From assembly GCA_049472215.1 (NCBI GenBank), contig JBLIRH010000003.1, positions 7,084 through 71,083 of the forward strand: a stretch of 64,000 bases of DNA. The letters are read 5' to 3'. The number at the start of each line of letters is the position of its first letter. Position 1 is the stretch's first letter. Position numbers and translations under genes: made by a program. Of the stretch, positions 40,512 to 64,000 are shown one piece after another. Source of the stretch: Thermoplasmatota archaeon. Lineage in GTDB: Archaea; Thermoplasmatota; Penumbrarchaeia; Penumbrarchaeales; Penumbrarchaeaceae. The notes under the pieces are model-generated. The model was not told where the DNA came from. It made no database searches and saw only the letters and a list, made by a program, of their open reading frames with translations.

Positions 40512-40528
40512 TTTTATAATTGTTTTAA

Positions 40529-41147: not shown

Positions 41148-41175
41148 GACCTATTTCAAACAAATTTGAAACAGT

Positions 41176-42264: not shown

Positions 42265-42278
42265 AGGTGAATTAATTG

Positions 42279-42515: not shown

Positions 42516-42589
42516 CATCAGGATAAATATCAGTTATTACAACCCTGATACCTCATAAATTTTAATTACGAATACCAATCTAGAACCTC

Positions 42590-43960: not shown

Positions 43961-43977
43961 CCGCAAAATCGTGATTC

Positions 43978-44673: not shown

Positions 44674-44692
44674 TGAATCAGGAGGAAAAGTA

Positions 44693-45034: not shown

Positions 45035-45128
45035 CGCTCCTCTGTGAATGCGTGAAAGAAGGAGAAAAGGGGGCCGGGGAGAGTGGATCGAAAGATCCTC
45101 TTCATTGGTCCAGAAGAGGAGAATAACA

Positions 45129-45167
45129 GGACCCCGCAACGGGTCAGCGGGGTCCAACCTTTATTTT
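45129..45167 (+). terminator. Stem-loop plus T-run terminator-like element
   Basis: GGACCCCGC-aacgggtca-GCGGGGTCC is a perfect 9-bp stem at 45129-45155, followed by aaccTTTATTTT. It is preceded by a second hairpin, TCCTCTTC-n9-GAAGAGGA. Confidence 0.45.
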
Positions 45168-45223
45168 CGAACCAGGATCACCTCTTTTGATCGCTTCCGG
45201 CCTCAATCGATAATGAATTATTC

Positions 45224-49202: not shown

Positions 49203-51461
49203 ATGGCAATAGAGAGGTTCGAGACGGACTACTCTGGAAAGAAATTGATAATCGAAACGGGCAGGATGGCCCATCAGGCCGATGCGGCTGTAATGGCAAG
49301 GGTCGGCGACACGATGGTCCTGGCCACGGTCTGCATGTCAAAATATGCCAGGGAAGGGATGGATTTCTTCCCTCTAATGGTAGATTACGAGGAGAGATAC
49401 TCGGCCGTGGGAAAGATCAAGGGACCGAGGTTCCTCAAGCGAGAGGGCAGACCCTCGACCGAGGCTGTGCTAACTGGAAGAATGATCGACCGTGGGTTGA
49501 GACCCTTGTTCCCGGACGGGCTCCGGAACGAGGTCCAGGTCATCATCATGCCACTTAGCGTTGACGGTGAGAACAAGCCGGACATAGTCGGAATGATCGC
49601 AGCCACGATCGCCCTTGAGATCTCCAATGTCCCCTTCGACGGGCCCATAACGGGATGCCGCGTTGGACTCGTGGGCGGGGATTTCGTTGTGAATCCCACT
49701 GTGGACGAGATCGAGTTCTCGGAGATCAACCTTGTCGTCATGGGCGACGGAAAGAGGATCACTATGGTCGACTGTGATGCCAAGGAGCTCGATGACGAAT
49801 ACTCGCTTAAGGCCTTCGAGGAGGCCATGAAGGCGATGGACCCTATAACCAAGTTCATGAAGGACATCTCCAAGAAAGTGGGCAAACCAAAGACAAAACG
49901 CGAAGACCTCAAATGGCGCGGGGAGGCATCGGATGAAGAGGTCAAGATCATGGACAAGATCAAGAAGAAGGCCATCAAGGATCTCGACAAGTATCTCTTC
50001 AACCAACCCGTCGGGTCAAAAGGGGAGAGGAAGGCCATAATCAGCGAGCTCGAGGATAAACTCGTGGAAGAGTTCAAGGGGAAGCTCAAGACGAAGGAGC
50101 GGTCGGAGGAGGAGACAGAGAAATATCTCCATACCCTGATCTCCAATTTCTTCTTCGACTTCATCGAGGAGCAGGTTACCCTCGCTATTCTGAACGAGGA
50201 CAAGAGGGTCGACGGTAGGAAGCTCGACCAGATAAGACCGCTCTCGGCCGAGGTCGGCCTCGTGCCCAGGGCTCACGGCTCCGGTCTCTTCTCAAGAGGT
50301 GAAACGCAGATCCTCAGCTTTGTCACCCTCGGTGCTCCCGGCGACGATCTGATAATTGAATCGATGGAGACCGATGACAAGAAAAAATACTTCCATCACT
50401 ATAATTTCCTGCCCTTCTCGGTAGGAGAGGTCAAACCCCTCAGGGGAGCCGGAAGGAGGGAGATCGGACATGGCGCACTTGCCGAGAAGGCTCTCCTGCC
50501 AGTTCTTCCGAGGCTCGACCAATTCCCTTACACAATAAGGGTCGTCTCCGAGGTAATGGGATCAAATGGCTCCTCATCAATGGGCTCAACTGTCGGTTCC
50601 ACTCTGGCATTAATGGATGCGGGTGTTCCGATAAGCAAACCCGTTGCCGGCATCGCTATGGGACTTGCCTCCGACGGTAAGAAATACAAGATACTCACCG
50701 ACCTTCAGGACCTTGAGGATGGAAAGGGAGGTATGGACTTCAAGTTCACGTCAACAGAAAGCGGGATAACAGCCATCCAGATGGACACGAAGACCCCGGG
50801 CCTCACCATCCAGATGATCAGGGATACCTTCCCCCAGATGAGAAAGGCCGTAAACGAGATCCTCCAGGTGGTAAAGACCGCCATCCCGGAGCCTAAGAAG
50901 GAACTTTCGGATTTCGCTCCGAGAATAATCTCGCTGAAGATCGACACCGAAAAGATCGGTGAGGTCATCGGTCCGGGAGGAAAGGTCATCCGGGGTCTAT
51001 GCGAAGATTACAGTGTTCAGATCGATGTCGAGGACGACGGTACGGTAATGATCACATCCACGGACTCCGCCAACGCAAAGCAGGTCGAGGGCATCATAAA
51101 GAGCATCGTCAGGGAGATCGAGGTCGGGGACATCTTCGAGGACGCCGAGGTCGTCAAGATCATGCCTTTCGGGGCTTTCGTACGTCTCACTCCGAAGACC
51201 GACGGGCTGCTCCATGTATCCGAACTTGACTGGACCCACGTGGATAAAGTTACTGACAAGGTACAGGTCGGCGACAGGGTCCGGGTCAAGGTCATCGAGA
51301 TCGATAGGGGCAAGGTCGAGGTTTCCCTGAGGGCGCTGACGCCGAGACCGGCTGACGTCGAAGTGAGAAGCAGAAGGGACCAGAGACGGTCCGGACCCCC
51401 AAGGAGACCTCAGAGAAGGGACGGTCAGAAACCGAGACGAGGCCCCCCGAAGAAACGATAG
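49203..51461 (+). CDS. pnp: Polyribonucleotide nucleotidyltransferase (PNPase) with KH and S1 domains and an R/P-rich tail
   Basis: 752 aa with two RNase PH-like halves (FPLMVDYEERYSAVGKIKGPRFLKREGRPS; FHHYNFLPFSVGE...GRREIGHGALAE). KH domain (IGEVIGPGGKVIR). S1 domain (GDIFEDAEVVKIMPFGAFVRL). C-terminal RRDQRRSGPPRRPQRRDGQKPRRGPPKKR. Confidence 0.9.
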   Translation: MAIERFETDYSGKKLIIETGRMAHQADAAVMARVGDTMVLATVCMSKYAREGMDFFPLMVDYEERYSAVGKIKGPRFLKREGRPSTEAVLTGRMIDRGLRPLFPDGLRNEVQVIIMPLSVDGENKPDIVGMIAATIALEISNVPFDGPITGCRVGLVGGDFVVNPTVDEIEFSEINLVVMGDGKRITMVDCDAKELDDEYSLKAFEEAMKAMDPITKFMKDISKKVGKPKTKREDLKWRGEASDEEVKIMDKIKKKAIKDLDKYLFNQPVGSKGERKAIISELEDKLVEEFKGKLKTKERSEEETEKYLHTLISNFFFDFIEEQVTLAILNEDKRVDGRKLDQIRPLSAEVGLVPRAHGSGLFSRGETQILSFVTLGAPGDDLIIESMETDDKKKYFHHYNFLPFSVGEVKPLRGAGRREIGHGALAEKALLPVLPRLDQFPYTIRVVSEVMGSNGSSSMGSTVGSTLALMDAGVPISKPVAGIAMGLASDGKKYKILTDLQDLEDGKGGMDFKFTSTESGITAIQMDTKTPGLTIQMIRDTFPQMRKAVNEILQVVKTAIPEPKKELSDFAPRIISLKIDTEKIGEVIGPGGKVIRGLCEDYSVQIDVEDDGTVMITSTDSANAKQVEGIIKSIVREIEVGDIFEDAEVVKIMPFGAFVRLTPKTDGLLHVSELDWTHVDKVTDKVQVGDRVRVKVIEIDRGKVEVSLRALTPRPADVEVRSRRDQRRSGPPRRPQRRDGQKPRRGPPKKR

Positions 51462-51581
51462 GATCGAGTCCCCACGTCCGAACTGGCACTCGAACAACCC
51501 CTTCAGCGTTAGCTTCGCCTCTGACCCCCATAATATATTTATAGGGCGAACCTGTCCACGATGGGAGAAGGAGGGATCGAA

Positions 51582-52388
51582 ATGTCATCGGGGATCAGCG
51601 CACCGATCGTCCAGGGAAAGGACATCGTAAAGATTTACGACACCGGTTCGGTTAAGGTCGAAGCACTTAGAGGAATTGACCTCGTTGTGAAGAAGGGGGA
51701 AATGGTCGCTGTGATGGGACCTTCGGGTTGCGGGAAGACAACACTTCTGAACTGCCTGTCAGGCCTCGACGAGACCACCTCCGGGAAGGTTTACGTCGAA
51801 GGTACCGACCTGGCGTTGATGAAGGACGATGAGAGGACCGAATACAGGGCAAGACACATGGGTTTCGTCTTTCAGTTCTATAATCTGCTTCCGGTCCTAA
51901 CAGCCGTCGAGAACGTGGAGATGGTCCTGCTTCTGTCAGGCATAAAACCCAAGGAGGCCAGGCAGAGGGCCGAAAAGGCCCTCGAGGTGGTCGGATTGAA
52001 GGGATACGAGAAACACCGGCCCTCCCAGCTCTCAGGAGGTCAGAGACAGAGGGTGACCCTTGCAAGGGCTCTTGTCAACGATCCGAAGATCGTATGGGGG
52101 GACGAGCCCACAGGCGATCTTGACAAGAAGAACTCCAACGACGTGATGGTGATGATGCAGAAGCTCAACCAGAAGCTGCAGATGACCTTCGTCATCGTCA
52201 CCCACGATCCCGATGTGGCCGCCATGTGCAGGAGGATCATCCACATGGAGGACGGCAAGATCGTCAAGGACGTTCCGATCACGGCAAAGGATGCACTGGT
52301 ACATCCAAAGGGTATCTCATATGGCGACTGCGGGGACAGGACCACTGGAGCTGCCAGGATATCGCTGCAGGAAAAAGCATCGATGTGA
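51582..52388 (+). CDS. ABC transporter ATP-binding subunit, MacB/LolD/FtsE-like
   Basis: Walker [10 protein letters not shown], signature [15 protein letters not shown] and Walker [12 protein letters not shown] prefer ATG 51582 after GAAGGAGGG over the track start 51561. Confidence 0.85.
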
Positions 52389-52401
52389 GGGGGGAATATA
52401 G

Positions 52402-55400
52402 TTGGGATTCGGGAGGTGGATGTCGGAGCATATCGGGGAGCTGGTACTTGTCGGCATCTTGTTCTTGATGACACCCATGGTGTTCGTCGGATTCCTGGTC
52501 CCCACCGATTACAGGGGGATCTTCCTGATCCCGGCCCTGTTCTTCCTGATCCTGCTCTTCATCGTGATCCTGATCCTGGCCCTTTCCAACAAGCTCCAGT
52601 TGATGATGGGATTGAGGAACCTTGTCAGGCACAAGAGCGACACGGTGATAGCGATCCTCGGTTTCATGATCGGCACATCGATAATCTGCTCATCCCTGGC
52701 TATCGGGGATACCATGAGCAATATGATAGAATCATTGGTCTACGATACCTATTATCTCCGGGATGAATATCTTTATGTAACCGACGAAGAGGGAGGAAGC
52801 TATCTCTGGGATGGCGACAACGCCACCATGATATCCGACCTTGTTTGGTCCCTCAACGAGAACGAAACACTGATCGACGGGGTTTCATGGGAACTTCTCT
52901 TCTCCGCTCCGGTCAGCAACGAGAAGAACAATCTCTTCGAACCGATAGTTTCCCTGAAAGCCTTCAGTCCGGAAACCGAAAGCGCTTTCGGATCCCTCGA
53001 AAGGTTCGGGGTCCCTGTGGAATATGACCTTGGCATGGATGAGGTCTTCATCACCGACGAGGTTTCCAGGATCATAGAGGCGGATGTCGGGGACGATCTC
53101 CGGATCTCATCGGAGACCTACATGGGAGGCAGGGTCTTCAAGGTCAAGGAGATCGTGGACAGCGACGGTAGAGCTGCCTGGGGGAGCAACAATATCTTTC
53201 TTTCATTCCCCGCGCTTTGGGACCTGTTCAATATAACGAACGCAACAGCGGAGAATCCCGGTCTGAACAACAACTGGACCGGCGGATACTACAACATGCT
53301 TTTCATCTCCAACAAGGGCGGGGTTGTCAGCGGTGCCGATCTTTGCTCCAAGGTAGTGCGGCGACTGAACGAGAAGCTTGAGAAGATCCCGCACCCCGTT
53401 GATACCAGAAAGAACCTCGAGGTCACCTATGACAAGCAGTCCAACGTTGATATGGCGACATCACAGATGAGCCAGTTCACCACCATGTTCCTGACATTCG
53501 GTACCTTTTCCATAATTGCTGGCATCACCCTGATCATCAACATCTTCGTAATGCTGTCGGAGGAGAGGAAGGAGGAGATGGGTATCTCCAGGGCTGTCGG
53601 AATGAAGAAAAGGCACCTAAGAATGGTCTACCTCTTCGAGGGGACCGCCTATTCGTTCATGTCATCGTTCGTGGGAGTCATACTCGGTGCAATTACTGGA
53701 TACGGGATAATATTCGCCGTTCAGAAGATCATCGACTCCATGACCCAGGCGGAACTCGAGATCCTTGAATATTATACGGTCTCTCCCTTTTCACTGATAC
53801 TTGCATTCATCGGCGGTTTCTCCATAACCATTGGCACGACGATCCTCATTACCCAGCTAATTGCCAATCTGAACATCGTTTCGGCGATCAGGAACACCCC
53901 CATCCCAAAGGTCAAGGGAAAATTGATCGTATGGGCCTGGAAGAAGTTCGGGGCATGGGACCAGGCCATGATGACCGGGGACGGAACGACCAAGGCCAAG
54001 GTTATCAATTTCCTGTTCGACCGGGTTGTCCTGTCCGGGGCCATAATGTTCTTGATCGGGTCTTTTCTGTTCGTCATCGGATTCCTGACAGAACTCATAT
54101 GGCCCGTTTTCCTCGGGATCTCCCTCAACATCATCGGAATTGGACTTCTTATCAGGTTCTTTGCCAACGAGAGGATCACCTACAACATCGTCGCGGTTCT
54201 CATCCTCATAATATACATAATCCCCACACCGGAACCCGTTGCAAGCTTCGGAGCGAATCTGGAGATGTTCATCATCTCCGGGATCTTCATGGTCACAGCG
54301 GGTGTCCTGCTGCTCGTCTGGAACACGGACATCATCCTCTGGGGGATCGAGAAGGTCATCACGGCCATCAGAATGTCGCCGGCCGCCATCAAGATGGCTA
54401 TCTCATACCCGATAAAAAAGAGGTTCCGGACCGGGGTGACGATCTTCATGTTCGCCCTCATAATTTTCACCATAACGACGCTGTCCATGATGGTCCACAC
54501 CTTCAACATCAACATAAAGGAGATCGAAAAGGATGTTGGAGGAGGTTACGATATAATCGGGATATCGCTGTTCCCCATCGATAACATGGAAGAGGGGCTT
54601 CTCAGGGAAAAGGAACGCGGCAACAGCGATGCGTATGACCTGGTGGACTGGGACAGGACCGTTTCCCTCAAGCAGGGGATCCTTTACTACAATATGACGC
54701 TCCCCTTCGGAATGGGCAACCAAGAGGTCCAGACCGGCTGCGGCGGCATTTCGGACAAGTTCATCGAGACGAACAGGTACGGCTTCAATGATATCGCATG
54801 GGAGGTCATCGATCCGAACGGGTCCATGGAACGAAACGACAGGAACGTATGGAACGCGTTGAAGGATTCCCCCGATTGGGTCATTGTCGACAGCTCCTGG
54901 GGGGAGAACGAGTACGGCCCTCCCGGAATGGGATCGGCCCTGAAGGCTGGGGATAACATCTCCGTCGTAAGCGCAACAGGGGTCCAGTATAACAAGACCA
55001 TAATCGGCATCTCCAAACTCATGGGGTACCGTTCCGTATTCCTTTATGATACATATGCCGAGGAGCAATTCTCGGTACGGGACAAGGTGCTGCATCTCAT
55101 CAGTATAAGGGGCGATGTAGACACGAGGGAAGCCGCAAACGAACTGAGAAAGGCCCTTTATCTTTCCGGTTTCTATGCTATTGTTGTCGAGGAACTGCTG
55201 GAGCAGGTCCTCGAGATCCAGAACAACTTCTTCAACCTCTTCAAAGCGTTCCTCGCTCTTGGCCTCATCATCGGTATTGTCGGTCTTGGGATCGTGACAC
55301 TGAGGTCCGTTTACGAGAGAAGGCACGAGATCGGTATGATGAGGGCCATAGGTTTCAAGAGGCTGATGGTCGTGGGGGCGTTCCTCGGTGAATCCGCTTT

Positions 55401-55623
55401 CATCGCAGGATCAGGTCTCTTCATCGGGACCGTCCTGGGAATAATCCTCGGTTGGATACTGTGGAGGGACGAACTGAGGAAGGTCTTCCCCGAATTCGGT
55501 ATCCCGTGGGTGGAACTCCTGTTGATCGGCGGGGGTGCATTCCTGGTGGCCCTTCTCTCCTCGATCGCACCATCCCTGAAGGCTGCAAGGGTCATACCCG
55601 CAGAGGCACTGAGATACGAGTGA
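52402..55623 (+). CDS. Double FtsX-domain ABC permease (YbbP/MacB-type) with two large extracytoplasmic domains
   Basis: 1073 aa with two FtsX-like 4-TM bundles (about aa 390-510 and 950-1070), extra TMs between them, and about 300-aa and 200-aa loops. Starts 14 nt after the ATPase gene. Confidence 0.8.
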   Translation: MGFGRWMSEHIGELVLVGILFLMTPMVFVGFLVPTDYRGIFLIPALFFLILLFIVILILALSNKLQLMMGLRNLVRHKSDTVIAILGFMIGTSIICSSLAIGDTMSNMIESLVYDTYYLRDEYLYVTDEEGGSYLWDGDNATMISDLVWSLNENETLIDGVSWELLFSAPVSNEKNNLFEPIVSLKAFSPETESAFGSLERFGVPVEYDLGMDEVFITDEVSRIIEADVGDDLRISSETYMGGRVFKVKEIVDSDGRAAWGSNNIFLSFPALWDLFNITNATAENPGLNNNWTGGYYNMLFISNKGGVVSGADLCSKVVRRLNEKLEKIPHPVDTRKNLEVTYDKQSNVDMATSQMSQFTTMFLTFGTFSIIAGITLIINIFVMLSEERKEEMGISRAVGMKKRHLRMVYLFEGTAYSFMSSFVGVILGAITGYGIIFAVQKIIDSMTQAELEILEYYTVSPFSLILAFIGGFSITIGTTILITQLIANLNIVSAIRNTPIPKVKGKLIVWAWKKFGAWDQAMMTGDGTTKAKVINFLFDRVVLSGAIMFLIGSFLFVIGFLTELIWPVFLGISLNIIGIGLLIRFFANERITYNIVAVLILIIYIIPTPEPVASFGANLEMFIISGIFMVTAGVLLLVWNTDIILWGIEKVITAIRMSPAAIKMAISYPIKKRFRTGVTIFMFALIIFTITTLSMMVHTFNINIKEIEKDVGGGYDIIGISLFPIDNMEEGLLREKERGNSDAYDLVDWDRTVSLKQGILYYNMTLPFGMGNQEVQTGCGGISDKFIETNRYGFNDIAWEVIDPNGSMERNDRNVWNALKDSPDWVIVDSSWGENEYGPPGMGSALKAGDNISVVSATGVQYNKTIIGISKLMGYRSVFLYDTYAEEQFSVRDKVLHLISIRGDVDTREAANELRKALYLSGFYAIVVEELLEQVLEIQNNFFNLFKAFLALGLIIGIVGLGIVTLRSVYERRHEIGMMRAIGFKRLMVVGAFLGESAFIAGSGLFIGTVLGIILGWILWRDELRKVFPEFGIPWVELLLIGGGAFLVALLSSIAPSLKAARVIPAEALRYE

Positions 55624-55737: not shown

Positions 55738-58700
55738 ATGACATGCCCGGGAGCGAGGAGAAGTCTACTGGTCGTACTGCTTGCGATTATTGTCCTGCCC
55801 GTGATCTCATTCGTTCATGTTCAGGGGGACGGTGGGTATATACCCATGATGAACATCAATGTCTACGAACCTGGTCAGAACGCGATCATCTGCTGGAACG
55901 GTGAGCAGGAAAGGATGTATCTGTCGATTAACATCTATGCGGACGAACCGACAGAAGGTATCCATTTCGTACCGTTTCCCTCACTTCCCAGGGTCTCCCT
56001 GGGCGATTTCGAGACCTTCGAGAACATGGAACGGGTCTTCCTCCGGGAACTTGATTTCCATAGTTTCGATAATTACAACAGCGACGGTACCAGCGGTGGA
56101 GGGGGAGGTGAAGAAAAGAGCTTCGAGGTAAAGTTCACCGCAACGCTCGGAAGCCACAGCATCACGGTGATCGAGGTTGTAGACCCTGAAGATTTCAAGG
56201 ACCAGATCAATGAGCTCATGGAGCAGGTGGGATCGACCATAGAGGCATGGCCGACCGGTCTTGAGGACGTTATTGTTGGATACTGCAACAAGGGATACAG
56301 CTACTTCGCGATCGACCGGTTCCAGATAGGCAACGAACCCGGGTCCGTCGAGCCCCTGATATACGATTTCAAGAGCAGGGAGCTCGTCTTCCCTCTCGAG
56401 ATATCATCGATCTTGAAGGGGCAGACGAGCGTGAAGCTTGCGCTGATCACATCTGAGGACCATCCTATCGACATCTCCGGGGTAATTGGTAAATATGGTA
56501 AGAAGGGGGAGGGGATCCTATCTCTATCCGATGTGCTCGAGGTCGATCCATCCCTGGACAAGCTGTTCGACGGTCGTTGTATCGGCCAGTATTTCGAGAT
56601 GCGATTGAACCTTCCTGATCTCAAAGGGGACTTCATTATCTCGACCCTTCCAGGAGTGTCATGGTGCATGGCAGGAAAGGCGACAGCGGAATATAGTTCC
56701 CACAACGGTCTGGGCCAGTCGCAGCTTCTAGTCTACGAAAGAACATTTTATCCTGATGAGGATGGGATCAGACTTGTGGATGAGACAAACGGGGAGGTCC
56801 TTTGGGAAGTCGGACCGATGAGAGAAATGGCAGCGATATATGATCACAAGTTCACAAGGAATGCTATCTTCGATGACCTGAACGGCCTGGGTGGACCCGA
56901 GGTCATACTGATAGATTCCACCTACAACCGAACATGCTACGAAACCTACGTCACCAGGCTCGATCCCGTCGATGGATTGACTTTATGGAGCAGGAAAGTC
57001 CCTAACCGATCCTACAGTGGGGGATACCTTCATCTGACCGGATACGATCAGACACTTCTGGTGCTTTATTCTACTTCGGATATCCTTGTCATCTCACTTC
57101 AGACGGGGAGCTTTTGGAACAGTTCATCATACTCCAACGTTCTAGGGTCAGCATCGCTTTCGGCTGTCAGCACCAAAGAAGCCGATATGGTGCTCCTTGA
57201 GAACACAAAGTACAGAATGACATCCGTCATAGATCCCTGGAAGGATCCGATAGAGACCCTGTGGTCCGTTCCTGAAAATGTGTATACCACCGTTCATTTC
57301 GGAGCGGAGGACCTTCTCCTCTTCAAGGATAACGATCTCTACAGGTTCAGGGAATGCCTGAACGGCTCCATAGTGAATTCGTACAGGACCGGCAACAACA
57401 TGATCGGGTGCTATGTTGATGAAGCTGCACCTGGCTGGCTCTACGGGATAACCTTGACGTACGATTATCCGAACCTGGTTGTCGATAAGGTCTCCATCTC
57501 CCACAAGAACATCAATTGGACATCGAGTATAGGACCGGGTATCGGAACACCAGCGGGAATGGACCAGTACTCCTGCACTTACACTGACATAAACTCCGAC
57601 GGAGTATGCGAGATCGTTGTATACATTCCGAGCACGACAAACCCATACGTAGCCGGATACGTTCCGAGCAAGCTGTCGACCTTCGTTCTTGACGGCGTTA
57701 ACGGAAGCCTCCTCTTCAACTCCCCGGGAAAGCTAATGGGCATAATGGACGGCACCCCTTCAAGGGCCCCGCAGATCTGTCTGAACGAGATGTACCATAT
57801 CAGCATTCACAACCTGAGAAGCGGAGATCGTCTGGTGAGTGCTGAAAAACATTTCCCATTATCCGGCGAGGTCCTCAGGTCGATGAGGGATATCAATGAT
57901 GACGGTTTCACGGACATCATCACAACGACGTACAATCGCTCATACTATGACTATTATTATAGTATTAAACACGGCGATGCATTCATCAACGGATACACAC
58001 AGAAATGCGAGAGGTTCGTTGAGATCGACACATCCACAGCCTATCAGTTCGGGTCGATCCTCTCAGGAGCCGATGGGAGGATACTATACCGGGAAGGGTA
58101 TAGACTGTATTCCAGGGCCGTGGAGTCCAGACTTATGATGCAAGCCGACAGCGATGAGGTTTACATTGACGGTACTTTGAGGTTCTTCCTTAAGGCGGGA
58201 GATGGAGCGATCCCTGCGGATATCGAGGACATCGAGCTATCAAGCAGCCTCGCGATGGGAATGTTCGTCAACCTGAAGCAGCTGCTTCCGGGGCTCTATT
58301 CATTCGAATGGAAGGCCCCCCAGACCTACACCGGAGAGGTCACAATAAAAGCAAGGGTTCTTGTCGAAGGGGTCCCGGTTTCGGAAGCAAAGACGACCGT
58401 CATAGTGAAGAAAAGGACCGATGTGAACGAGGACATTTCAATGCTCTCCTCCCAGGCATCGATAAGTGCCAGATCAGTGAACATCAACGAACCGGTCCTC
58501 GTGGAGGTGGATATCGGGGGGCAGCATGATCCGTTGCTGCTGACCCTCAAGTTGACGGACCTCAGCCTATGCGGCATGGTCTCACAACCGATCATGACCC
58601 TCGAGAACAGATATGTAGGCTCTTTCATACCTGTCAGGGAGGTCGAGATAGCAAGCCTGCTCCTCGAGGTCAGATATGGTGAAGAGCTGGTCCTTAGAAG

Positions 58701-59550
58701 GCTCTGGGCCATCGAGGTCCTTGAAAGGGTGGAGATCGAACATGAAAAGGAGGATCATTTGGCCATCGGTGATCCACAGGTCTTCCCGAGGGTCCTGGCG
58801 CCCGAAGGATCGTCACTGATCTTCATACCATTTTCGGGAACTGACAGACATGACGACATCAGGGTCATCTGCGACGATGACGGGAGGGGAGGATCTTTCT
58901 CGAACCTGCGGATACTCATGGGTTCGTTGATAGTCCTCGATTACCACGCTCCGTCGACCGAGGGCTCCGTCGCCATAACCGCAGTCGTATATCTGGAAGC
59001 GGACCCTGTGGGTTCGGTGAATACATGGCTGTCGGTCGTTGAGGATCCAAAGGTGGAGCCTCGATCACCCACTGGACTTTTCGTTTCATATCGGACCGTA
59101 AGGAGCGGAAGCATCTGGCAGCCGACAACGGATATTTTCATCACCGTCACGCGGGATGAAAAGTTGCTGGAGAGCATCAACTACATTCAGGTGAACAGTA
59201 TCGGTGGGATCAATGTCGATCAGGGTACGGCATACGATGATATCACCCTTCATCTGGTAGCAAAGCACTCGGTAGCTGTCCTGGGTCCCATTCAGATCCT
59301 TATCTGGGATGAGTTCGGAACATCGCAGATAATCGATATTTACCTGAACGAGACCCCAGTCTCAAAGGAGGAAGGACCGGTGGAAGAACCCGGACCGCAA
59401 AATGAGAATGGTGAAAATACAGATTGGTACCTGCCAGGAGCGATCATTGCCACCTTGGCAATGGCCCTTGTATTGATCGTGATCTCTGCTGCACTATGGG
59501 ACCGAATGAGGAACGATGGGTTCGCTGGTCCGCCCGAGCGTAAGAAATGA
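55738..59550 (+). CDS. Giant surface protein: signal peptide, DUF2330-like N-domain (tentative), FG-GAP/beta-propeller-like middle, C-terminal TM
   Basis: 1270 aa. Signal (LLVVLLAIIVLPVISFVHVQG). GGYIPMMNINVYEPGQNAIICWNGEQERMYLSINIYADEPTEGIHFVPFPSLP resembles the DUF2330 N-terminal pattern. FG-GAP-like motifs (DINSDGVCEIVVY, DINDDGFTDIITT). C-terminal TM (LPGAIIATLAMALVLIVISAAL). Confidence 0.55.
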   Translation: MTCPGARRSLLVVLLAIIVLPVISFVHVQGDGGYIPMMNINVYEPGQNAIICWNGEQERMYLSINIYADEPTEGIHFVPFPSLPRVSLGDFETFENMERVFLRELDFHSFDNYNSDGTSGGGGGEEKSFEVKFTATLGSHSITVIEVVDPEDFKDQINELMEQVGSTIEAWPTGLEDVIVGYCNKGYSYFAIDRFQIGNEPGSVEPLIYDFKSRELVFPLEISSILKGQTSVKLALITSEDHPIDISGVIGKYGKKGEGILSLSDVLEVDPSLDKLFDGRCIGQYFEMRLNLPDLKGDFIISTLPGVSWCMAGKATAEYSSHNGLGQSQLLVYERTFYPDEDGIRLVDETNGEVLWEVGPMREMAAIYDHKFTRNAIFDDLNGLGGPEVILIDSTYNRTCYETYVTRLDPVDGLTLWSRKVPNRSYSGGYLHLTGYDQTLLVLYSTSDILVISLQTGSFWNSSSYSNVLGSASLSAVSTKEADMVLLENTKYRMTSVIDPWKDPIETLWSVPENVYTTVHFGAEDLLLFKDNDLYRFRECLNGSIVNSYRTGNNMIGCYVDEAAPGWLYGITLTYDYPNLVVDKVSISHKNINWTSSIGPGIGTPAGMDQYSCTYTDINSDGVCEIVVYIPSTTNPYVAGYVPSKLSTFVLDGVNGSLLFNSPGKLMGIMDGTPSRAPQICLNEMYHISIHNLRSGDRLVSAEKHFPLSGEVLRSMRDINDDGFTDIITTTYNRSYYDYYYSIKHGDAFINGYTQKCERFVEIDTSTAYQFGSILSGADGRILYREGYRLYSRAVESRLMMQADSDEVYIDGTLRFFLKAGDGAIPADIEDIELSSSLAMGMFVNLKQLLPGLYSFEWKAPQTYTGEVTIKARVLVEGVPVSEAKTTVIVKKRTDVNEDISMLSSQASISARSVNINEPVLVEVDIGGQHDPLLLTLKLTDLSLCGMVSQPIMTLENRYVGSFIPVREVEIASLLLEVRYGEELVLRRLWAIEVLERVEIEHEKEDHLAIGDPQVFPRVLAPEGSSLIFIPFSGTDRHDDIRVICDDDGRGGSFSNLRILMGSLIVLDYHAPSTEGSVAITAVVYLEADPVGSVNTWLSVVEDPKVEPRSPTGLFVSYRTVRSGSIWQPTTDIFITVTRDEKLLESINYIQVNSIGGINVDQGTAYDDITLHLVAKHSVAVLGPIQILIWDEFGTSQIIDIYLNETPVSKEEGPVEEPGPQNENGENTDWYLPGAIIATLAMALVLIVISAALWDRMRNDGFAGPPERKK

Positions 59551-59560
59551 GCAGGTTGGA

Positions 59561-59908
59561 TCAAAGTTCCAAGGAGTTCTCCCAGACCCCGTGGATATTG
59601 CAGTATGAGGTCGCGATAAGGGATTTGAAATCAGATAATGGTATGTGGAAATCCGCGCTCGGCTCTGTATAGGACGGGGCGAAGTTCACCTTTCCGAGGT
59701 CTATGACCATTCCATTATCCTTGATCCCCATGAGCTGGGCCCAGACGATGTGGTGCTCTACCAGGTTTGGATGAGCGATCTCCTTGCCCACTATTATCCT
59801 GACTACGTCCTTCCCGCCTTTTCCCTCACCTTTGCATATCTCGATCTGTGGGACGTGCTTCTCCTTTCCCTCGTTCTCGCCGGTCTTGTAAACATCGCAT
59901 GTCTTCAT
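59561..59908 (-). CDS. sor: Superoxide reductase (1Fe-SOR/neelaredoxin type)
   Basis: GKEKHVPQIE, GKEIAHPNLVEHHIVW, YTEP and SYCNIHGVWEN match the Fe-ligand motifs of Pyrococcus-type SOR. I prefer the internal Met at 59908; the track ORF extends to 59965. Confidence 0.9.
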   Translation of the reverse strand: MKTCDVYKTGENEGKEKHVPQIEICKGEGKGGKDVVRIIVGKEIAHPNLVEHHIVWAQLMGIKDNGMVIDLGKVNFAPSYTEPSADFHIPLSDFKSLIATSYCNIHGVWENSLEL

Positions 59909-60040
59909 CCTTTTCACCTTCCCTGTTTTGCCTGAACGGGACTTGGAAGAGATAAAGGTATTCATAGTATGAATTCCTGAAATGTTAAGTGGTCAGGCTA
60001 TCACTAAATCATTTATTAAGATAGAGAACGATGGGGGGCC

Positions 60041-61441
60041 ATGGACAGGAGACTGGTGTTCGGTATTCCGGCCGTGGTCATCGCCGCGATACTGGTAACG
60101 ACAGTCGTCATCTCTGTTGATTCGATCATCGGTAATGATAGTTCCTATAGGATCATCGATTTCGACACCGAACTCGCAGGTACACACGTGCGAAAGCTCG
60201 TCCAATGGGGGCCGCGGATGACCGGATCCGAGGCAGAGGGGATGGGGGCAGATTATATTGCCCAGCAGTTCACCGACGCCGGGCTCGAGGATGTCCATAT
60301 CGAGACCTATCAGGTCCCCCTTTTCGAGGTAGGGATCGCGGAACTCTCCCTTGTGGAGTATTACCCCCTCAAGAACCTTCCAAGACCATTCGGCCAGACA
60401 ATGGAGTTCACCCATATGGAGGAATTCGTGCTCCAGGGTTATTCAGGATCCCTGGCCTGGTCCGATTTCAGGGACGATCTCGAGGTGGTCAACATAGGCA
60501 ACGGCAGCGATCCCGGTTCCTACTCGAGAAGCCGTGGAATGGTGTGCTTCGTCGAGCAAACAGCGGATACACCGGGAAATGTGGAGGTCTACGAGAATGC
60601 CTATTCTGCCGGAGCAAGGGCCATAATCCTTCAGAACATAATGAGAGGCGAGGAGATCGGATACCTCCCCATGTTCAAGACGAGCCAGTACCACGAACCT
60701 GACCAGGCTGCAAGGGACATCCCCTTCATGATGGTGTCGAAAGCCTGTGGTGATGACATATTGACCAGGACGTCAGGCAACTTCAAACTGCGGATGAACA
60801 TAGACGTTCGCACACAGAACATGGACTGCAGGGTCGTGGTAGGGGACCTGAAGGGAAGTCGAGATGACGGGATGATCGTTTTCGGCGCCCATCACGACAC
60901 ATGTTACAATACCGTGGGAGTTGTCGACAACACTGTGGGACCGGCAACCCTGATCGAGATCGCCAGGGGGATGAGCGGAGAGAACACGAAGAACACCATA
61001 AGGTTCGCGACCTTTGGTGGAGAGGAGGAGGGGCTTTACGGCTCCATCGCCTACTATAACGCCCACAAGGCCGAGTTCCAGGGCACGATCGATCTTTACA
61101 TCAATTTCGACATGGCGCACGTCGACCCCGACACCACCAGCTTCACAATAACAACCACATCCAACTCGACCATACCTGTCCTGAAGGACATCAGGGATGA
61201 CCTGGTAAGGTCGGAGCCGGTTCTTGGCAAATATGATATCAACGTGGTCTACAACGATATGACATGGGCCGCTTCGGACCATTGGCCCTTCGTCAACGGG
61301 GGGCATGAGGCGATGGGAGGTTGGGGATCCGGATGCATCGAATATCACACCTACAAGGACGACCTCACCAACCTCAACGAGGAATCACTCCAGATCGGCG
61401 GAAGGATCTTGGGCAGCTATGCTCTTATGAAGGCGAGCTGA
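60041..61441 (+). CDS. M28-family aminopeptidase with PA domain, N-terminal membrane anchor
   Basis: Zn-ligand blocks GAHHDTCYNTVGVVDNTVGPATLIEIARGM and FATFGGEEEGLYGSIAY. N-terminal TM (VFGIPAVVIAAILVTTVVI). Confidence 0.85.
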   Translation: MDRRLVFGIPAVVIAAILVTTVVISVDSIIGNDSSYRIIDFDTELAGTHVRKLVQWGPRMTGSEAEGMGADYIAQQFTDAGLEDVHIETYQVPLFEVGIAELSLVEYYPLKNLPRPFGQTMEFTHMEEFVLQGYSGSLAWSDFRDDLEVVNIGNGSDPGSYSRSRGMVCFVEQTADTPGNVEVYENAYSAGARAIILQNIMRGEEIGYLPMFKTSQYHEPDQAARDIPFMMVSKACGDDILTRTSGNFKLRMNIDVRTQNMDCRVVVGDLKGSRDDGMIVFGAHHDTCYNTVGVVDNTVGPATLIEIARGMSGENTKNTIRFATFGGEEEGLYGSIAYYNAHKAEFQGTIDLYINFDMAHVDPDTTSFTITTTSNSTIPVLKDIRDDLVRSEPVLGKYDINVVYNDMTWAASDHWPFVNGGHEAMGGWGSGCIEYHTYKDDLTNLNEESLQIGGRILGSYALMKAS

Positions 61442-61456
61442 TCGATCTTCCTTCAG

Positions 61457-62278
61457 GTGAAATATTATTACCCCCAACACCATGTTACCTTAGGGGGAAT
61501 TCGATTGAAGGACAACGGGAACGGGGTATTCCGTAAACTGAGGATATTCAATCTGGTAATGGCCGTCCTACACTTTCTTCAGGGTCTGGTGATGGTCATC
61601 ATCAGCAACGACTTTACCATCGAGGTCACGAGGGGATATCTTGATTTCGACCCTGTGACGGAGCGGTTGTTCCCGGAAACGGCGAACGTCCTCGATATCC
61701 GGTTGGGGCCGCTGATCGCATCGTTCCTTTTCATGTCATCCGTCGCTCATTTCCTGATCGGGACCGGGCTCTACAAGAGATACGTGAAGGACCTGAGGAA
61801 AGGAATGAACCGCTTCCGCTGGTACGAGTACTCGATCAGTGCTTCCGTAATGATAGTGGCCATCGCAATGCTGACCGGCATTTATGACCTGGGGACCCTC
61901 TTGCTGATCTTCTTCATGAACCTCATGATGATACTGTTCGGTCTTCGAATGGAGGTCCATAACCAGGGCCGGGAACATCTGGATTGGTCCCCCTTCATAT
62001 ACGGGTGCATTGCAGGGGTGATCCCATGGATAGCGATCGGAATACACCTCTTCGGTGCAGGCGGAGGGGATGGCGGTCCTCCGACCTTCGTTTATTACAT
62101 CTACGGTTCCATCGCGGTCTTCTTCAATTGTTTTGCCATAAACATGGTGCTTCAATACAAGAAGGTCTGGAAGTGGAAGAACTACCTTTTCGGTGAGACA
62201 GTATACATCATCCTCAGCCTCGTGGCCAAATCGCTTCTGGCCTGGCAGGTGTTCGCCGGGACGCTCAGACCCGGATAA
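61457..62278 (+). CDS. Heliorhodopsin
   Basis: 7-TM protein with the blocks I recall from heliorhodopsin 48C12: LRIFNLVMAVLHFLQG (vs FNRIAGVFHLLQM), NRFRWYEYSISASVMIV (vs FRWVEYSLSSSVMIV, Glu counterion), YGCIAGVIPWIAIG (vs FGCIAGIVPWIGLL), and YIILSLVAKSLLAWQVFAGTLRP (vs YIVLSLVAKSALAWQIFSGTLIP, retinal Lys). The start is GTG 61457, or TTG 61505 after a GGGGG motif. Confidence 0.9.
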   Translation: MKYYYPQHHVTLGGIRLKDNGNGVFRKLRIFNLVMAVLHFLQGLVMVIISNDFTIEVTRGYLDFDPVTERLFPETANVLDIRLGPLIASFLFMSSVAHFLIGTGLYKRYVKDLRKGMNRFRWYEYSISASVMIVAIAMLTGIYDLGTLLLIFFMNLMMILFGLRMEVHNQGREHLDWSPFIYGCIAGVIPWIAIGIHLFGAGGGDGGPPTFVYYIYGSIAVFFNCFAINMVLQYKKVWKWKNYLFGETVYIILSLVAKSLLAWQVFAGTLRPG

Positions 62279-62284
62279 GCGTGA

Positions 62285-63199
62285 TCATAGGACGACTCGA
62301 TCCAGCCTGTGAAGTCCTGAATCCAGAACTAACTTCACCGCTCTGAGATATTCGTCCCTGGAGGGTCTCCTTCCCATTCCCTCGCATTCCATGGCCTTGT
62401 ATTCCGGCCTGTACTGTCCCATCACGTTGATGTAGGTGTCCTTTGAGACCTCATCGGAAAGGAACCTTGCGATCTTTTCTGTTCCCGCCAGATCGTTCGG
62501 CAGGACAAGATGCCTGACAAGCAGTCCTTTCTCAGCTACTCCTCTCTCGTCCATAATGAGGTCTCCCACCTGCCGATGCATCTCCCTGATGGCAGCGAAA
62601 TTTACTTCTGGGTACTTTTCAACGCGGGAAAGCCTCCTGCCCACGGAAGGGTCAGAGTACTTCATATCCGGCATGTAGATGTCCACTATACCCTCGAGGA
62701 CCCGCAGGACCTCGAGAGGATCGTAACCTCCCGTATTATAGACAATGGGAAGTTCGAAACCCCGCATGCATGCTATTTCCAGGGCTTCAAGGACCTGCGG
62801 TACGACATGGGTTGGTGAGACGAGGTTGAGATTATGGCAGCCAAAGCCCTGGACACGCATCATTAAAGAGGCAAGGCGTTCAGCGTCCGCAACCTCTCCT
62901 GTCACCTTCTGGCTTATATCCCAGTTCTGGCAGAACCTGCATCCGAGATTGCATCCCGAGAAGAAGATCGTCCCGGACCCGTTCCTTCCCACAAGTGGAC
63001 CCTCCTCACCAAAATGGGGGCCGCAGCTCGAAACCACCGCATAACGCCCGATCCTGCAAAACCCTTTTTCATCTTTTAACCGGTCGACCCCGCACTTCCT
63101 TGGACATAAACGGCAATCTACCATCATTTCCAGTGCGAGGTCCCTACGTCGTTCAAGCTCTCCCGATCGAAAGAGTTTTACATAGGACGCGACGGACAT
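62285..63199 (-). CDS. Radical SAM protein, PflX-like (pyruvate formate-lyase activase-related, COG1313-type)
   Basis: CxxxCxxC motif in FFSGCNLGCRFCQNWDIS, with an additional N-terminal Cys cluster (CRLCPRKCGVDR). Confidence 0.7.
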   Translation of the reverse strand: MSVASYVKLFRSGELERRRDLALEMMVDCRLCPRKCGVDRLKDEKGFCRIGRYAVVSSCGPHFGEEGPLVGRNGSGTIFFSGCNLGCRFCQNWDISQKVTGEVADAERLASLMMRVQGFGCHNLNLVSPTHVVPQVLEALEIACMRGFELPIVYNTGGYDPLEVLRVLEGIVDIYMPDMKYSDPSVGRRLSRVEKYPEVNFAAIREMHRQVGDLIMDERGVAEKGLLVRHLVLPNDLAGTEKIARFLSDEVSKDTYINVMGQYRPEYKAMECEGMGRRPSRDEYLRAVKLVLDSGLHRLDRVVL

Positions 63200-63282: not shown

Positions 63283-64000
63283 ATGGTATCCCTGCGGGAA
63301 CTGGGGAACAGCCTTGCGTTCATAACGGGAGGTTCAAGCGGCATCGGCCTCGCCACCGCCAAAATCTTGGCCTCCAAGGGTTGCCGGATCATTCTTGCTG
63401 CCAGGGACCCTGTCAAACTGAAAAAGGGACGATCGAAGATCGATGGTGTTCTGGACACGATCTCCCTGGATGTCTCATGTTGGAAAGAGGTGGAAGCGGC
63501 CTGTCAGAGAACGATAGAGACCCATGGTGTCCCGAACATCATAATCAATTCCGCGGGTATCGTGCATCCAGGAACACTTGACAATCTGAAATTGGACCAG
63601 ATAGACGATATGATAGATATCGATCTCAAAGGTACTATGTACGTATGCAGGGCCTTTGGTGGGAAAATGGATTCCCCCGGACACATAGTCAATATATCTT
63701 CGATGGCAGGTGTGATCGGCCTTTACGGATATACGGCCTACAGTGCCGCCAAGTTCGGGATCTGGGGATTCTCCGAGGCGTTGAGGATGGAGATGAATCC
63801 CAAGGGCATAGGGGTCTCAGTGATATTTCCGCCGGATACACAGACACCCCAGCTGGATTTTGAGAACCGCACCAAACCGCAGGAACTCAAAGAGATATCA
63901 GGGACCATCAGCCCGATACCCCCTGAAAAAGTGGCGAAGGCCATCCTATCCGCAATTGTCTCCGGGGAGTTCATGGTATTTCCTGACGCTTCATCGAGGG
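63283..64000 (+). CDS. Short-chain dehydrogenase/reductase (SDR), partial; runs off the window end
   Basis: Absent from the ORF track because no stop lies in the window. My own translation from ATG 63283 gives MVSLRELGNSLAFITGGSSGIGLATAKILA... It has the TGxxxGxG cofactor motif, NSAG, and the catalytic S...YSAAK. Confidence 0.85.
   Translation, partial: MVSLRELGNSLAFITGGSSGIGLATAKILASKGCRIILAARDPVKLKKGRSKIDGVLDTISLDVSCWKEVEAACQRTIETHGVPNIIINSAGIVHPGTLDNLKLDQIDDMIDIDLKGTMYVCRAFGGKMDSPGHIVNISSMAGVIGLYGYTAYSAAKFGIWGFSEALRMEMNPKGIGVSVIFPPDTQTPQLDFENRTKPQELKEISGTISPIPPEKVAKAILSAIVSGEFMVFPDASSR

What the first reader, a model, noticed from the sequence alone, without database searches (positions are those of the whole stretch)
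59561..63199. Heliorhodopsin directly downstream of an M28 aminopeptidase, with superoxide reductase and a radical SAM gene as neighbours
The 61457-62278 product has the diagnostic heliorhodopsin blocks, including the TM7 retinal lysine (SLVAKSLLAWQ) and the TM3 glutamate (RWYEYS). Heliorhodopsin function is still unresolved. Here it sits 15-63 nt (depending on start) behind a membrane-anchored M28 peptidase on the same strand, which suggests co-transcription. A 1Fe-SOR lies about 1.5 kb upstream on the opposite strand, which would fit light-associated oxidative stress. This neighbourhood offers a testable functional context, such as a light-regulated ecto-peptidase or stress response. The glnA in this window is about 48 kb away, so I do not infer the published HeR-glutamine synthetase link from position.
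Basis: partly seen in the sequence, partly recalled or inferred. Interest (0 to 1): 0.65.

Follow-up and report, generated by a model that had tools for sequence, protein, structure and literature searches.

The report
Heliorhodopsin gene in inherited gene block
The window holds a genuine light-sensing heliorhodopsin gene next to a peptidase gene, but comparison with relatives indicates the two are neighbours by shared ancestry, not a working pair, so the locus is largely ordinary.

Summary
All four genes are real and correctly identified: 1Fe superoxide reductase (SOR), a membrane-anchored M28 aminopeptidase, a TaHeR-like heliorhodopsin (HeR) with the retinal lysine and glutamate counterion in place, and a radical SAM gene. 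NCBI already annotates this HeR. Its start is most likely TTG 61505 (257 aa), 63 nt after M28.

The SOR–M28–HeR arrangement is not unique. It recurs in five other contigs from one narrow Thermoplasmatota lineage. There it is part of a longer collinear backbone running from PNPase-like, ABC and FtsX genes through to SDR genes and giant surface-protein genes.

The M28–HeR junction is one of the least stable in that backbone:
- A PIN gene is inserted in one relative and a TPR gene in another.
- One relative keeps M28 in place but has neither HeR nor SOR.

Seven other HeRs at 79–87% identity have unrelated neighbours. About 140 more distant HeR loci have no adjacent M28 or SOR.

HeR also has its own TATA-like and Shine-Dalgarno-like elements inside the 63-nt spacer, and these recur whatever gene lies upstream.

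The likeliest reading is a stand-alone photoreceptor gene in a vertically inherited block. Functional coupling to M28 or SOR is weakly supported. Two loose ends remain: a conserved tail-to-tail HeR/radical-SAM pair, and the joint absence of SOR and HeR in one relative.

The parts
49203..51461 (+). PNPase-like exoribonuclease (RNase_PH x2, KH, S1). Left end of the collinear backbone shared with relatives.
   Evidence: Pfam. 74-80% identical counterparts in L081 and L083.
51561..55623 (+). ABC ATPase (51561-52388) and MacB/FtsX-type permease (52402-55623), 13 nt apart. Backbone genes.
   Evidence: Pfam. Counterparts in L081, L083, L155, L156 and L157.
55738..59550 (+). 1270-aa membrane-anchored surface protein (DUF2330 N-terminal domain, weak FG-GAP). 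A variable insert between FtsX and SOR.
   Evidence: Pfam. Present also in L156. Absent from L081, L083, L155 and L157.
59561..59908 (-). 1Fe superoxide reductase (neelaredoxin type), probably 115 aa. The ORF extends to the ATG at 59965.
   Evidence: PF01880 1.5e-22 and TIGR00332 above cutoff. 2hvb Pyrococcus SOR 1.9e-19 with EKHVP, HPN..EHH and CNIH aligned. Relatives are called at 115 aa.
59909..60040 (.). Divergent SOR/M28 intergenic region. Holds an A/T-only run at 60011-60019 and a G-run at 60033-60038 ahead of the M28 ATG.
   Evidence: Read from the sequence. Promoter and ribosome-binding roles are inferred.
60041..61441 (+). M28 family aminopeptidase with an N-terminal membrane anchor or signal sequence and a PA-like insert. 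The catalytic domain is predicted to be outside the cell.
   Evidence: PF04389 8.3e-30. 6hc6 YwaD 1.9e-13. One hydrophobic segment within residues 1-32, and motifs HHD284, DNT296, EEE328, FDM356 and SDH412.
61442..61504 (+). M28-HeR spacer, 63 nt. Holds a TATA-like A/T run at 61460-61470 (AAATATTATTA) and an SD-like G-run at 61493-61497.
   Evidence: The A/T run occurs in 11 of 16 HeR loci against a 6.6% background. The G-run occurs in 14 of 16 against 3.1%. Function is inferred.
61505..62278 (+). Heliorhodopsin, 257 aa from the TTG start. The alternative GTG at 61457 is unlikely.
   Evidence: PF18761 2.6e-101, NF038020 347.7 bits. TaHeR 6is6 2.7e-86. H23, S78, H82, E108, S112, S238 and K242 are present and invariant in 33 relatives. 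K/R-rich N-terminus and loops 2-3 and 6-7.
62285..63199 (-). Radical SAM protein of uncharacterised subfamily, with a CNLGCRFC cluster motif and an extra N-terminal Cys cluster. Convergent with HeR, stop codons 6 nt apart.
   Evidence: PF04055 5e-13. No NCBIfam above cutoff. No PDB relative by sequence. The same tail-to-tail pair occurs in L150, L155 and L001.
63283..64000 (+). SDR-family oxidoreductase, running off the window end. Backbone gene.
   Evidence: tblastn 75% identity to the L150 SDR. PF00106 5.3e-43.

Best explanation
The locus is a stretch of vertically inherited, collinear chromosome in a narrow lineage of Thermoplasmatota. Four functionally independent genes happen to lie side by side.

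HeR is a TaHeR-type retinal photoreceptor. It has seven transmembrane helices with the N-terminus inside, Schiff-base Lys242 and counterion Glu108. It is most likely transcribed from its own promoter in the 63-nt spacer and translated from TTG 61505 behind a GGGGG ribosome-binding site.

By homology it should act as a slow-cycling, non-pumping light sensor or regulator. Its partner, if any, is not identified by this neighbourhood.

M28 is an ecto-aminopeptidase that feeds peptide scavenging. SOR is a cytoplasmic superoxide detoxifier of an anaerobe. The radical SAM gene is an uncharacterised enzyme.

Shown here: gene identities, residues, synteny pattern and conserved upstream elements. Inferred: promoter use, topology, and the absence of functional coupling.
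For: Gene identities.

Collinear backbone in the carriers and in L157 (PNPase-like, ABC, FtsX, [giant], SOR, M28, HeR, [rSAM], SDR, 245-aa gene, SDR, giant, FG-GAP). At the sequence level: PNPase 74-80%, ABC 76-78%, FtsX 49-59%.

The M28-HeR junction is indel-prone: PIN in L083/84, TPR in L155, HeR absent in L157. L157 is nested among carriers on the M28 tree and has no remnants.

Seven HeRs at 79-87% identity lie in unrelated contexts.

No adjacent M28 or SOR in about 140 more distant HeR loci.

The M28 subfamily is far more widespread than the block: 871 homologues at E <= 1e-20 and dozens of 466-470-aa orthologue clusters.

HeR's own upstream elements recur whatever the upstream gene: 11/16 and 14/16 loci against 6.6% and 3.1% background, binomial P of 3e-10 and 9e-20. 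All four direct junctions are 57-64 nt long and contain both elements.

Published surveys of HeR neighbours do not list M28, SOR or radical SAM (PMC11109279; PMC8612252).
Against: The SOR-M28-HeR trio persists in six lineages whose M28 proteins have diverged to 60-63% identity, while the genes outside the trio vary. That is more persistence than for some other junctions.

SOR and HeR are both missing from L157, which could hint at a link.

The window's spacer has no clear oligo-T terminator, so some read-through from M28 is possible.

The loci used for the promoter statistic are phylogenetically related, and the background includes coding DNA, so the P values overstate independence.

Only two M28-centred neighbourhoods could be sampled.
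Confidence: 0.68

Rival explanations
1. M28 and HeR form a functional pair. They are co-transcribed, or at least co-regulated, and HeR modulates the membrane-anchored ecto-peptidase through contacts between transmembrane helices. Peptide scavenging would then become light-dependent. This would be analogous to published HeR regulation of glutamine synthetase, photolyase or an ABC transporter.
For: Same strand with a 63-nt gap and no obvious terminator. Adjacency or near-adjacency in six lineages across 60-88% M28 identity. Both are membrane proteins. Precedents for HeR regulating a neighbouring gene's product: PMC9529153, PMC9769723, PMC11109279. One class of HeR transcripts in freshwater Actinobacteria includes a peptidase (PMC8612252).
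Against: PIN or TPR genes are inserted between the two in 2 of 6 carriers. M28 is retained in place without HeR in L157. HeRs at 79-87% identity lie elsewhere with no M28 nearby. HeR has its own promoter-like elements in the spacer. The M28 catalytic domain is predicted to be extracellular, whereas two of the published partners (glutamine synthetase, photolyase) are cytoplasmic. M28 orthologues are much more widespread than the block.
Confidence: 0.1
2. HeR and SOR belong to a light and oxidative-stress response. HeR senses light, which predicts photo-oxidative stress, and SOR removes the resulting superoxide. They are kept near each other for co-regulation and are lost together when a lineage moves to dark, strictly anoxic habitats.
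For: SOR accompanies HeR in all six carriers, and both are missing in L157 although M28 between them is kept. Bulzu et al. proposed a link between HeR and oxidative-stress mitigation from enrichment of redox genes near HeRs (PMC8612252).
Against: SOR is on the opposite strand and separated from HeR by M28, and further by PIN or TPR in some carriers. No SOR homologue occurs within 8-10 kb of any other HeR in about 150 loci. The co-absence is a single observation and is equally explained by ecology. SOR is a common gene of anaerobes.
Confidence: 0.08
3. The functionally relevant neighbour is the convergent radical SAM gene (or the SDR gene downstream), not M28. The HeR/rSAM tail-to-tail pair is kept as a unit, for example because the enzyme acts on the chromophore or a cofactor of HeR, or through overlapping 3' ends.
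For: The HeR/rSAM pair has stop codons 2-10 nt apart in the window, L150, L155 and also L001. L001's outer context is unrelated and lacks M28, SOR and SDR. An SDR directly follows HeR in L081 and L156. Distant SDRs flank HeRs in Chloroflexota and Saccharibacteria loci. SDR is one of ten frequent HeR neighbour groups in PMC11109279.
Against: rSAM is absent next to HeR in L081, L156 and L083 and in the other six non-carrier contexts (all seven except L001). Convergent genes cannot be co-transcribed, and a 2-10-nt gap leaves little room for insertions, so the pair can persist passively. The SDR stays in place without HeR in L157. SDR is a huge family, so chance adjacency is common. No biochemical rationale is known.
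Confidence: 0.08

Closest known systems
TaHeR, heliorhodopsin of Thermoplasmatales archaeon SG8-52-1 (PDB 6is6, 7u55; E108D mutant 7clj)
   Same: Alignable over residues 22-272 of the 273-aa GTG-start ORF with one 4-residue insertion, E = 2.7e-86. Same numbering up to residue ~187. Glu108 counterion, Schiff-base Lys (K242 here, K238 in TaHeR), His23, His82, Ser78, Ser112 and Ser238 are all present. Same phylum.
   Different: It is a diverged relative of TaHeR, not a near-identical copy. It has a 4-residue GGGD insertion in the loop between helices 5 and 6. No spectroscopy or structure exists for this protein.
HeR-partner operons with demonstrated regulation: AbHeR-glutamine synthetase (PMC9529153), TfHeR-photolyase (PMC9769723), OcHeR-OmrDE ABC transporter (PMC11109279)
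   Same: HeR lies on the same strand as, and close to, an enzyme gene. A regulatory interaction is conceivable.
   Different: In those cases the authors assign the partner to the same operon. Here the neighbour is a predicted extracellular M28 peptidase, the junction carries its own promoter-like elements, it is interrupted in some relatives, and it is confined to one lineage. glnA is 48 kb away. The ABC/FtsX pair nearby is MacB-type and is separated from HeR by three genes.
Proposed link between HeR and oxidative-stress genes (Bulzu et al. 2021, PMC8612252)
   Same: A redox-defence gene (SOR) lies within 1.5 kb of HeR.
   Different: That study reports glyoxylases, thioredoxin, peroxidase and catalase, mostly in Actinobacteria, but not SOR. 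Here SOR is divergent from M28 and is found near HeR only in this lineage.
SDR-family neighbour group of HeRs (Cho et al. 2024, PMC11109279)
   Same: An SDR gene lies downstream of HeR: directly in L081 and L156, and after the rSAM gene in the window, L150 and L155.
   Different: The SDR here persists without HeR in L157. It is only about 27-37% identical to the SDRs near bacterial HeRs in my loci.

Membership tests
Heliorhodopsin (PF18761 / NF038020) | Scores above the curated family cut-offs over the full length | tested here: met
   PF18761 338.4 bits (cutoff 26.7), profile positions 1-242 of 242. NF038020 347.7 bits (cutoff 100).
Heliorhodopsin (PF18761 / NF038020) | Retinal Schiff-base lysine in helix 7, aligned with TaHeR K238 | tested here: met
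   K242 in the 257-aa product (K258 of the GTG ORF) aligns with chain K244, which is native K238. Invariant in 33 relatives.
Heliorhodopsin (PF18761 / NF038020) | Single glutamate counterion in helix 3, aligned with TaHeR E108 | tested here: met
   E108 aligns with chain residue 114, the position that is Asp in the 7clj mutant. Invariant.
Heliorhodopsin (PF18761 / NF038020) | Seven transmembrane helices with the N-terminus cytoplasmic (inverted relative to type-1 rhodopsins) | tested here: met
   Prediction only. Hydrophobic segments are consistent with 7 TM. K+R counts: N-terminus 4, loop 2-3 7, loop 6-7 4. Loop 1-2 has 3 K+R but 6 D+E, and loop 5-6 has 0 K+R.
Heliorhodopsin (PF18761 / NF038020) | Binds all-trans retinal, absorbs visible light, slow photocycle without ion pumping | not testable with these tools
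   Needs expression with retinal and spectroscopy. No retinal or carotenoid biosynthesis gene was found among the window ORFs scanned.
Peptidase family M28 | Pfam domain above cut-off, with the co-catalytic zinc ligands and catalytic Glu present | tested here: met
   PF04389 104.4 bits (cutoff 21.3). Motifs HHD284, DNT296, EEE328, FDM356 and SDH412. In the YwaD 6hc6 alignment, query HHD, DNT, EEE and SDH align with HYD, DNG, EEL and SDH; the FDM motif aligns with LDM. Assigning these motifs to metal ligands rests on my knowledge of the family.
1Fe superoxide reductase (neelaredoxin type) | SOR iron-centre domain without the N-terminal desulforedoxin domain; His4-Cys ligands and the EKHVP motif | tested here: met
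   TIGR00332 66.7 bits (cutoff 61.9). The two-domain dfx_rbo model scores far below its cutoff. 2hvb 1.9e-19 with EKHVP, HPN..EHH and CNIH aligned.
HeR-partner operon (light-regulated neighbour enzyme) | HeR and partner under a single promoter | tested here: inconclusive
   Same strand with a 63-nt gap and no oligo-T run. But a TATA-like A/T run and a G-run in the spacer are conserved upstream of HeR in unrelated contexts. Transcript data are needed.
HeR-partner operon (light-regulated neighbour enzyme) | Adjacency recurs across HeR-bearing relatives beyond general synteny | tested here: not met
   Found only in six lineages that share a longer collinear backbone. Interrupted in two of them. 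HeR is absent in L157. Absent in 7 close and about 140 distant HeR loci.
HeR-partner operon (light-regulated neighbour enzyme) | Physical interaction and light-dependent change of partner activity | not testable with these tools
   Requires biochemistry.

The most novel reading that the evidence does not exclude
In this Thermoplasmatota lineage the heliorhodopsin genuinely works with one of its neighbours. It could gate the membrane-anchored M28 ecto-peptidase by light. It could form a light and superoxide stress module with SOR, given that both are present in six lineages and both are missing in L157. Or it could depend on the conserved tail-to-tail radical SAM enzyme. Any of these would give archaeal heliorhodopsins a first assigned partner.
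Probability: 0.12. Interest if true: 0.6.

Novelty: new member of a known kind. Interest (0 to 1): 0.2.

Why it matters
No function is known for archaeal TaHeR-type heliorhodopsins, so a reproducible gene neighbourhood would be a useful lead. This analysis shows that the M28/SOR neighbourhood is real and recurrent, but that it is best explained by inherited gene order in one narrow lineage. It should therefore not be given priority as a functional clue.

The practical results are:
- a corrected gene model for the HeR (TTG start, own promoter-like region);
- a defined set of natural variants for anyone who wants to test coupling: carriers, interrupted carriers and a HeR-less relative;
- two small leads that might repay a wider survey: the HeR/radical-SAM tail-to-tail pair, and the joint absence of SOR and HeR.

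Tried and rejected
- **GTG 61457 as the HeR start (15-nt gap, which would favour an operon).** Rejected. NCBI's product and nearly all relatives are about 257 aa. A G-run lies 8-12 nt before TTG 61505. The extension is interrupted by in-frame stops in 8 of 12 relatives.
- **Link to the published HeR-ABC transporter system.** The nearby ABC/FtsX pair is MacB-type and is separated from HeR by the giant protein, SOR and M28. It stays in place in L157 without HeR. Rejected.
- **Retinal or carotenoid biosynthesis genes in the window.** None found among the ORFs scanned with Pfam: the ORFs of 150 aa or more that do not lie within a longer ORF, plus the five genes at the locus.
- **Remnants of HeR or SOR in L157.** None at tblastn E <= 10.
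- **Bacterial promoter/terminator scanner.** Not used, because it does not cover archaeal promoters.
- **Literature search pairing heliorhodopsin with aminopeptidase, M28, superoxide reductase or desulfoferrodoxin.** None of the 15 top-ranked papers listed mentions heliorhodopsin.
- **Sequence search of the rSAM protein against the PDB.** No hits.

Full report

Yes. The ORF list shows 59561-59965(-), 60041-61441(+), 61457-62278(+) and 62285-63199(-).

Pfam and NCBIfam assign them as follows:
- 59561-59965(-): the SOR iron domain (PF01880 1.5e-22; TIGR00332 above cutoff; the two-domain desulfoferrodoxin model far below its cutoff).
- 60041-61441(+): Peptidase_M28 (8.3e-30), with a weak PA insert.
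- 61457-62278(+): Heliorhodopsin (PF18761 2.6e-101; NF038020 347.7 bits against a cutoff of 100).
- 62285-63199(-): Radical_SAM (5e-13), with no specific NCBIfam above cutoff.

The SOR aligns with Pyrococcus 1Fe-SOR 2hvb (1.9e-19), with EKHVP, HPN..EHH and CNIH conserved. M28 aligns with YwaD 6hc6. It carries the HHD, DNT, EEE, FDM and SDH motifs and a single N-terminal hydrophobic segment behind an "MDRR" start. That predicts an outward-facing catalytic domain.

**2. The heliorhodopsin.**

Its best solved relative is TaHeR (6is6, E = 2.7e-86). The 7clj sequence, which I know as the E108D mutant, shows Asp where 6is6 and the query have Glu. That fixes the numbering:
- The query Glu in RWYEYS is the E108 counterion.
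- The Lys in SLVAKS aligns with chain K244, which is native K238.

In the 257-aa product these are E108 and K242. With H23, S78, H82, S112 and S238 they are invariant in an alignment of 33 relatives at 61-84% identity. The roles of the His and Ser residues are recalled from the TaHeR literature, not tested here.

Charged-residue counts fit a cytoplasmic N-terminus. K+R is 4 in the N-terminus, 7 in loop 2-3 and 4 in loop 6-7. Loop 1-2 is acidic (6 D+E against 3 K+R), and loop 5-6 has no K or R.

The protein already exists in NCBI as "MAG: heliorhodopsin HeR [Thermoplasmatota archaeon]", 257 aa (P0001). The 257-aa model starts at TTG 61505. A GGGGG run lies 8-12 nt upstream. The alternative GTG-61457 extension is not conserved, because in-frame stops occur in 8 of 12 relatives. 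The gap to M28 is therefore 63 nt, not 15.

**3. Is the neighbourhood conserved?**

I collected 157 loci:
- 80 from a scan of GTDB species representatives with an archaeal HeR alignment;
- 63 from a metagenome scan with the HeR itself;
- 14 from twelve exact-protein contig look-ups, one of which found nothing.

tblastn with the window's SOR, M28, rSAM and giant protein found an adjacent SOR and M28 only among the closest HeRs.

Carriers of SOR(-)/M28(+)/HeR(+):

| Locus | HeR identity | Arrangement around the block |
|---|---|---|
| window | – | giant, SOR, M28, HeR, rSAM, SDR |
| L150 | 85% | identical order including rSAM and SDR |
| L156 | 84% | found through its M28 (83% identical); has the giant protein, no rSAM |
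| L081 | 83% | no rSAM |
| L083/L084 | 81% | 110-aa PIN gene between M28 and HeR |
| L155 | 78% | 464-aa TPR gene between M28 and HeR |

Non-carriers at similar HeR identity:

| Locus | HeR identity | Neighbours |
|---|---|---|
| L148/149 | 87% | RRM protein and glycosyltransferase |
| L151 | 83% | dodecin and EamA |
| L082 | 81% | unknown genes |
| L085 | 81% | no M28 hit in 1.8 kb upstream |
| L001 | 80% | giant β-helix protein upstream; rSAM, Fic and S8 peptidase downstream |
| L152/153 | 79% | MarR-MatE |
| L154 | 79% | PAC2 and CBS |

No locus with a HeR at 72% identity or below has an adjacent M28 or SOR. The single distant M28 (34% identity, L003 = L088) lies 4.3 kb away.

**4. Why the adjacency is best read as inherited order.**

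The carriers share much more than the trio. The backbone runs PNPase-like, ABC, FtsX/MacB, SOR, M28, HeR, SDR, a 245-aa gene, a second SDR, a ~1000-aa protein and a ~1690-aa FG-GAP protein. The window has the same left and right flanks. Sequence identities are 74-80% for PNPase, 76-78% for ABC and 49-59% for FtsX.

Within this backbone the M28-HeR junction is among the least stable. It is direct in four carriers, interrupted in two, and HeR is missing in L157. L157 (M28 75% identical) keeps ABC, FtsX, M28, SDR, the 242-aa gene, SDR, a giant protein and FG-GAP. It has neither SOR nor HeR, the spacers are clean (107 and 116 nt), and no remnants are detectable. On an M28 tree L157 is nested among carriers, so the absences are most simply secondary losses.

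On a HeR tree the carriers form two neighbouring subclades, with non-carriers nested between them. That fits a single origin in a narrow lineage followed by losses or relocations.

The M28 subfamily itself is widespread in Thermoplasmatota. There are 871 homologues at E <= 1e-20 and dozens of 466-470-aa clusters at 45% identity or more.

**5. Transcription signals.**

Across 16 HeR loci with different upstream genes:
- An A/T-only run of at least 8 nt lies 25-60 nt upstream of the start in 11. Random positions in the same loci give 6.6%.
- A run of at least four G lies 5-16 nt upstream in 14. Background is 3.1%.

The four direct M28-HeR spacers are 57-64 nt long and all contain both elements. 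In the window these are AAATATTATTA at 61460-61470 and GGGGG at 61493-61497.

This geometry fits an archaeal TATA box about 26 nt ahead of a start site, with a short leader carrying a Shine-Dalgarno sequence. That reading is inference from general knowledge of archaeal promoters. The loci are related and the background includes coding DNA, so the P values are generous.

M28 has a similar arrangement: an A/T run at 60011-60019 and a G-run at 60033-60038. For comparison, the ABC-FtsX pair upstream is separated by 13 nt, which is operon-like. The window's spacer has no oligo-T run, so read-through from M28 cannot be excluded.

**6. Mechanism judged most likely.**

HeR is a stand-alone, TaHeR-like photoreceptor gene with its own promoter. 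M28 is an ecto-aminopeptidase of a peptide-scavenging archaeon; the window also encodes an M3 oligopeptidase. SOR is a general oxygen-stress enzyme of an anaerobe. Their proximity reflects shared ancestry (confidence about 0.68).

Rivals:
- Light-regulated ecto-peptidase (about 0.10).
- HeR-SOR light and oxidative-stress module (about 0.08). It rests mainly on the joint absence in L157 and on the general proposal of Bulzu et al. (PMC8612252).
- A relevant rSAM or SDR partner (about 0.08).

**7. Comparison with what is known.**

Two published surveys of HeR neighbourhoods do not report M28, SOR or radical SAM. PMC11109279 lists ten frequent neighbour groups, including SDR, ABC transporter and glutamine synthetase. 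PMC8612252 reports two-component systems and redox genes. A full-text search pairing heliorhodopsin with M28, aminopeptidase or SOR terms listed no paper mentioning heliorhodopsin among its 15 top-ranked results.

The HeR is a new member of a known, structurally characterised family. The neighbourhood is a lineage-specific feature with no evident functional meaning.

**8. Loose ends.**

- The HeR/rSAM tail-to-tail pair has stop codons 2-10 nt apart. It is kept in the window, L150 and L155, and also in L001, whose outer context is unrelated. In my data this is the only adjacency that survives a complete change of context. Such tight convergent pairs can persist passively, and the pair is absent from most other contexts.
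- SOR and HeR are jointly absent in L157, but this is a single case.

**Verdict.** Interest is low (0.2). The most novel reading not excluded is a genuine HeR partner among these neighbours, with a probability of about 0.12.

Noticed in passing
window 62276-62287; L150 3453-3467; L155 8757-8764; L001 10772-10787: HeR and the radical SAM gene are tail-to-tail with stop codons only 2-10 nt apart. The pair is kept in L001, whose surrounding genes are entirely different (no M28, SOR or SDR). The two rSAM proteins are 68% identical.
   Followed up: partly
L157 3815-3921 and 5326-5441: A close relative (M28 75% identical, same ABC-FtsX...SDR backbone) lacks both SOR and HeR on either side of M28. 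Spacers are clean and no remnants are detectable. On the M28 tree it is nested among carriers, so both genes were probably lost.
   Followed up: partly
L083 7457-7789; L155 6499-7893: Unrelated genes are inserted exactly at the M28-HeR junction in two carriers: a 110-aa PIN-domain gene and a 464-aa TPR gene.
   Followed up: yes
L016 9184-9915; L044 9167-9898; L056 9060-9791; L050 6180-6938: SDR-family genes directly flank distant HeRs in Chloroflexota and Saccharibacteria loci. This matches the SDR neighbour group of Cho et al. 2024. In the window's lineage an SDR also lies just downstream of HeR (window 63283 onward).
   Followed up: partly
L004, L009, L013: Contigs labelled 'uncultured Gammaproteobacteria bacterium' encode HeRs 55-61% identical to this archaeal HeR. 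Heliorhodopsins are reported to be absent from diderm bacteria, so these are probably mis-binned or mislabelled contigs.
   Followed up: no
window 47510-48805 (-) and 45703-47508 (+): A RuBisCO large-subunit homologue lies next to an M3 oligopeptidase F gene. It is probably the archaeal form III, which is my inference.
   Followed up: no
window 40001-46000: A lower-GC stretch (0.45-0.49, against about 0.52-0.55 elsewhere). It holds an ArsP-type permease (41176-42264), a TPR protein (42590-43960) and an unassigned 231-aa ORF. It may be acquired DNA.
   Followed up: no
window 1720-4731, 4739-7624, 30476-35401, 38126-40249, 55738-59550: The window contains many very large predicted surface proteins (FG-GAP repeats, transglutaminase-like plus Ig domains, He_PIG, DUF2330). 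The 1003-aa ORF at 1720-4731 and the 773-aa ORF at 15081-17402 have no Pfam match at E <= 1e-5.
   Followed up: no
window 11280-15023: glnA (12273-13649, -) is flanked by a protein with an AsnC-type HTH domain (11280-12176) and a MiaB-like radical SAM methylthiotransferase (13716-15023). It is unrelated to the HeR locus by position.
   Followed up: no
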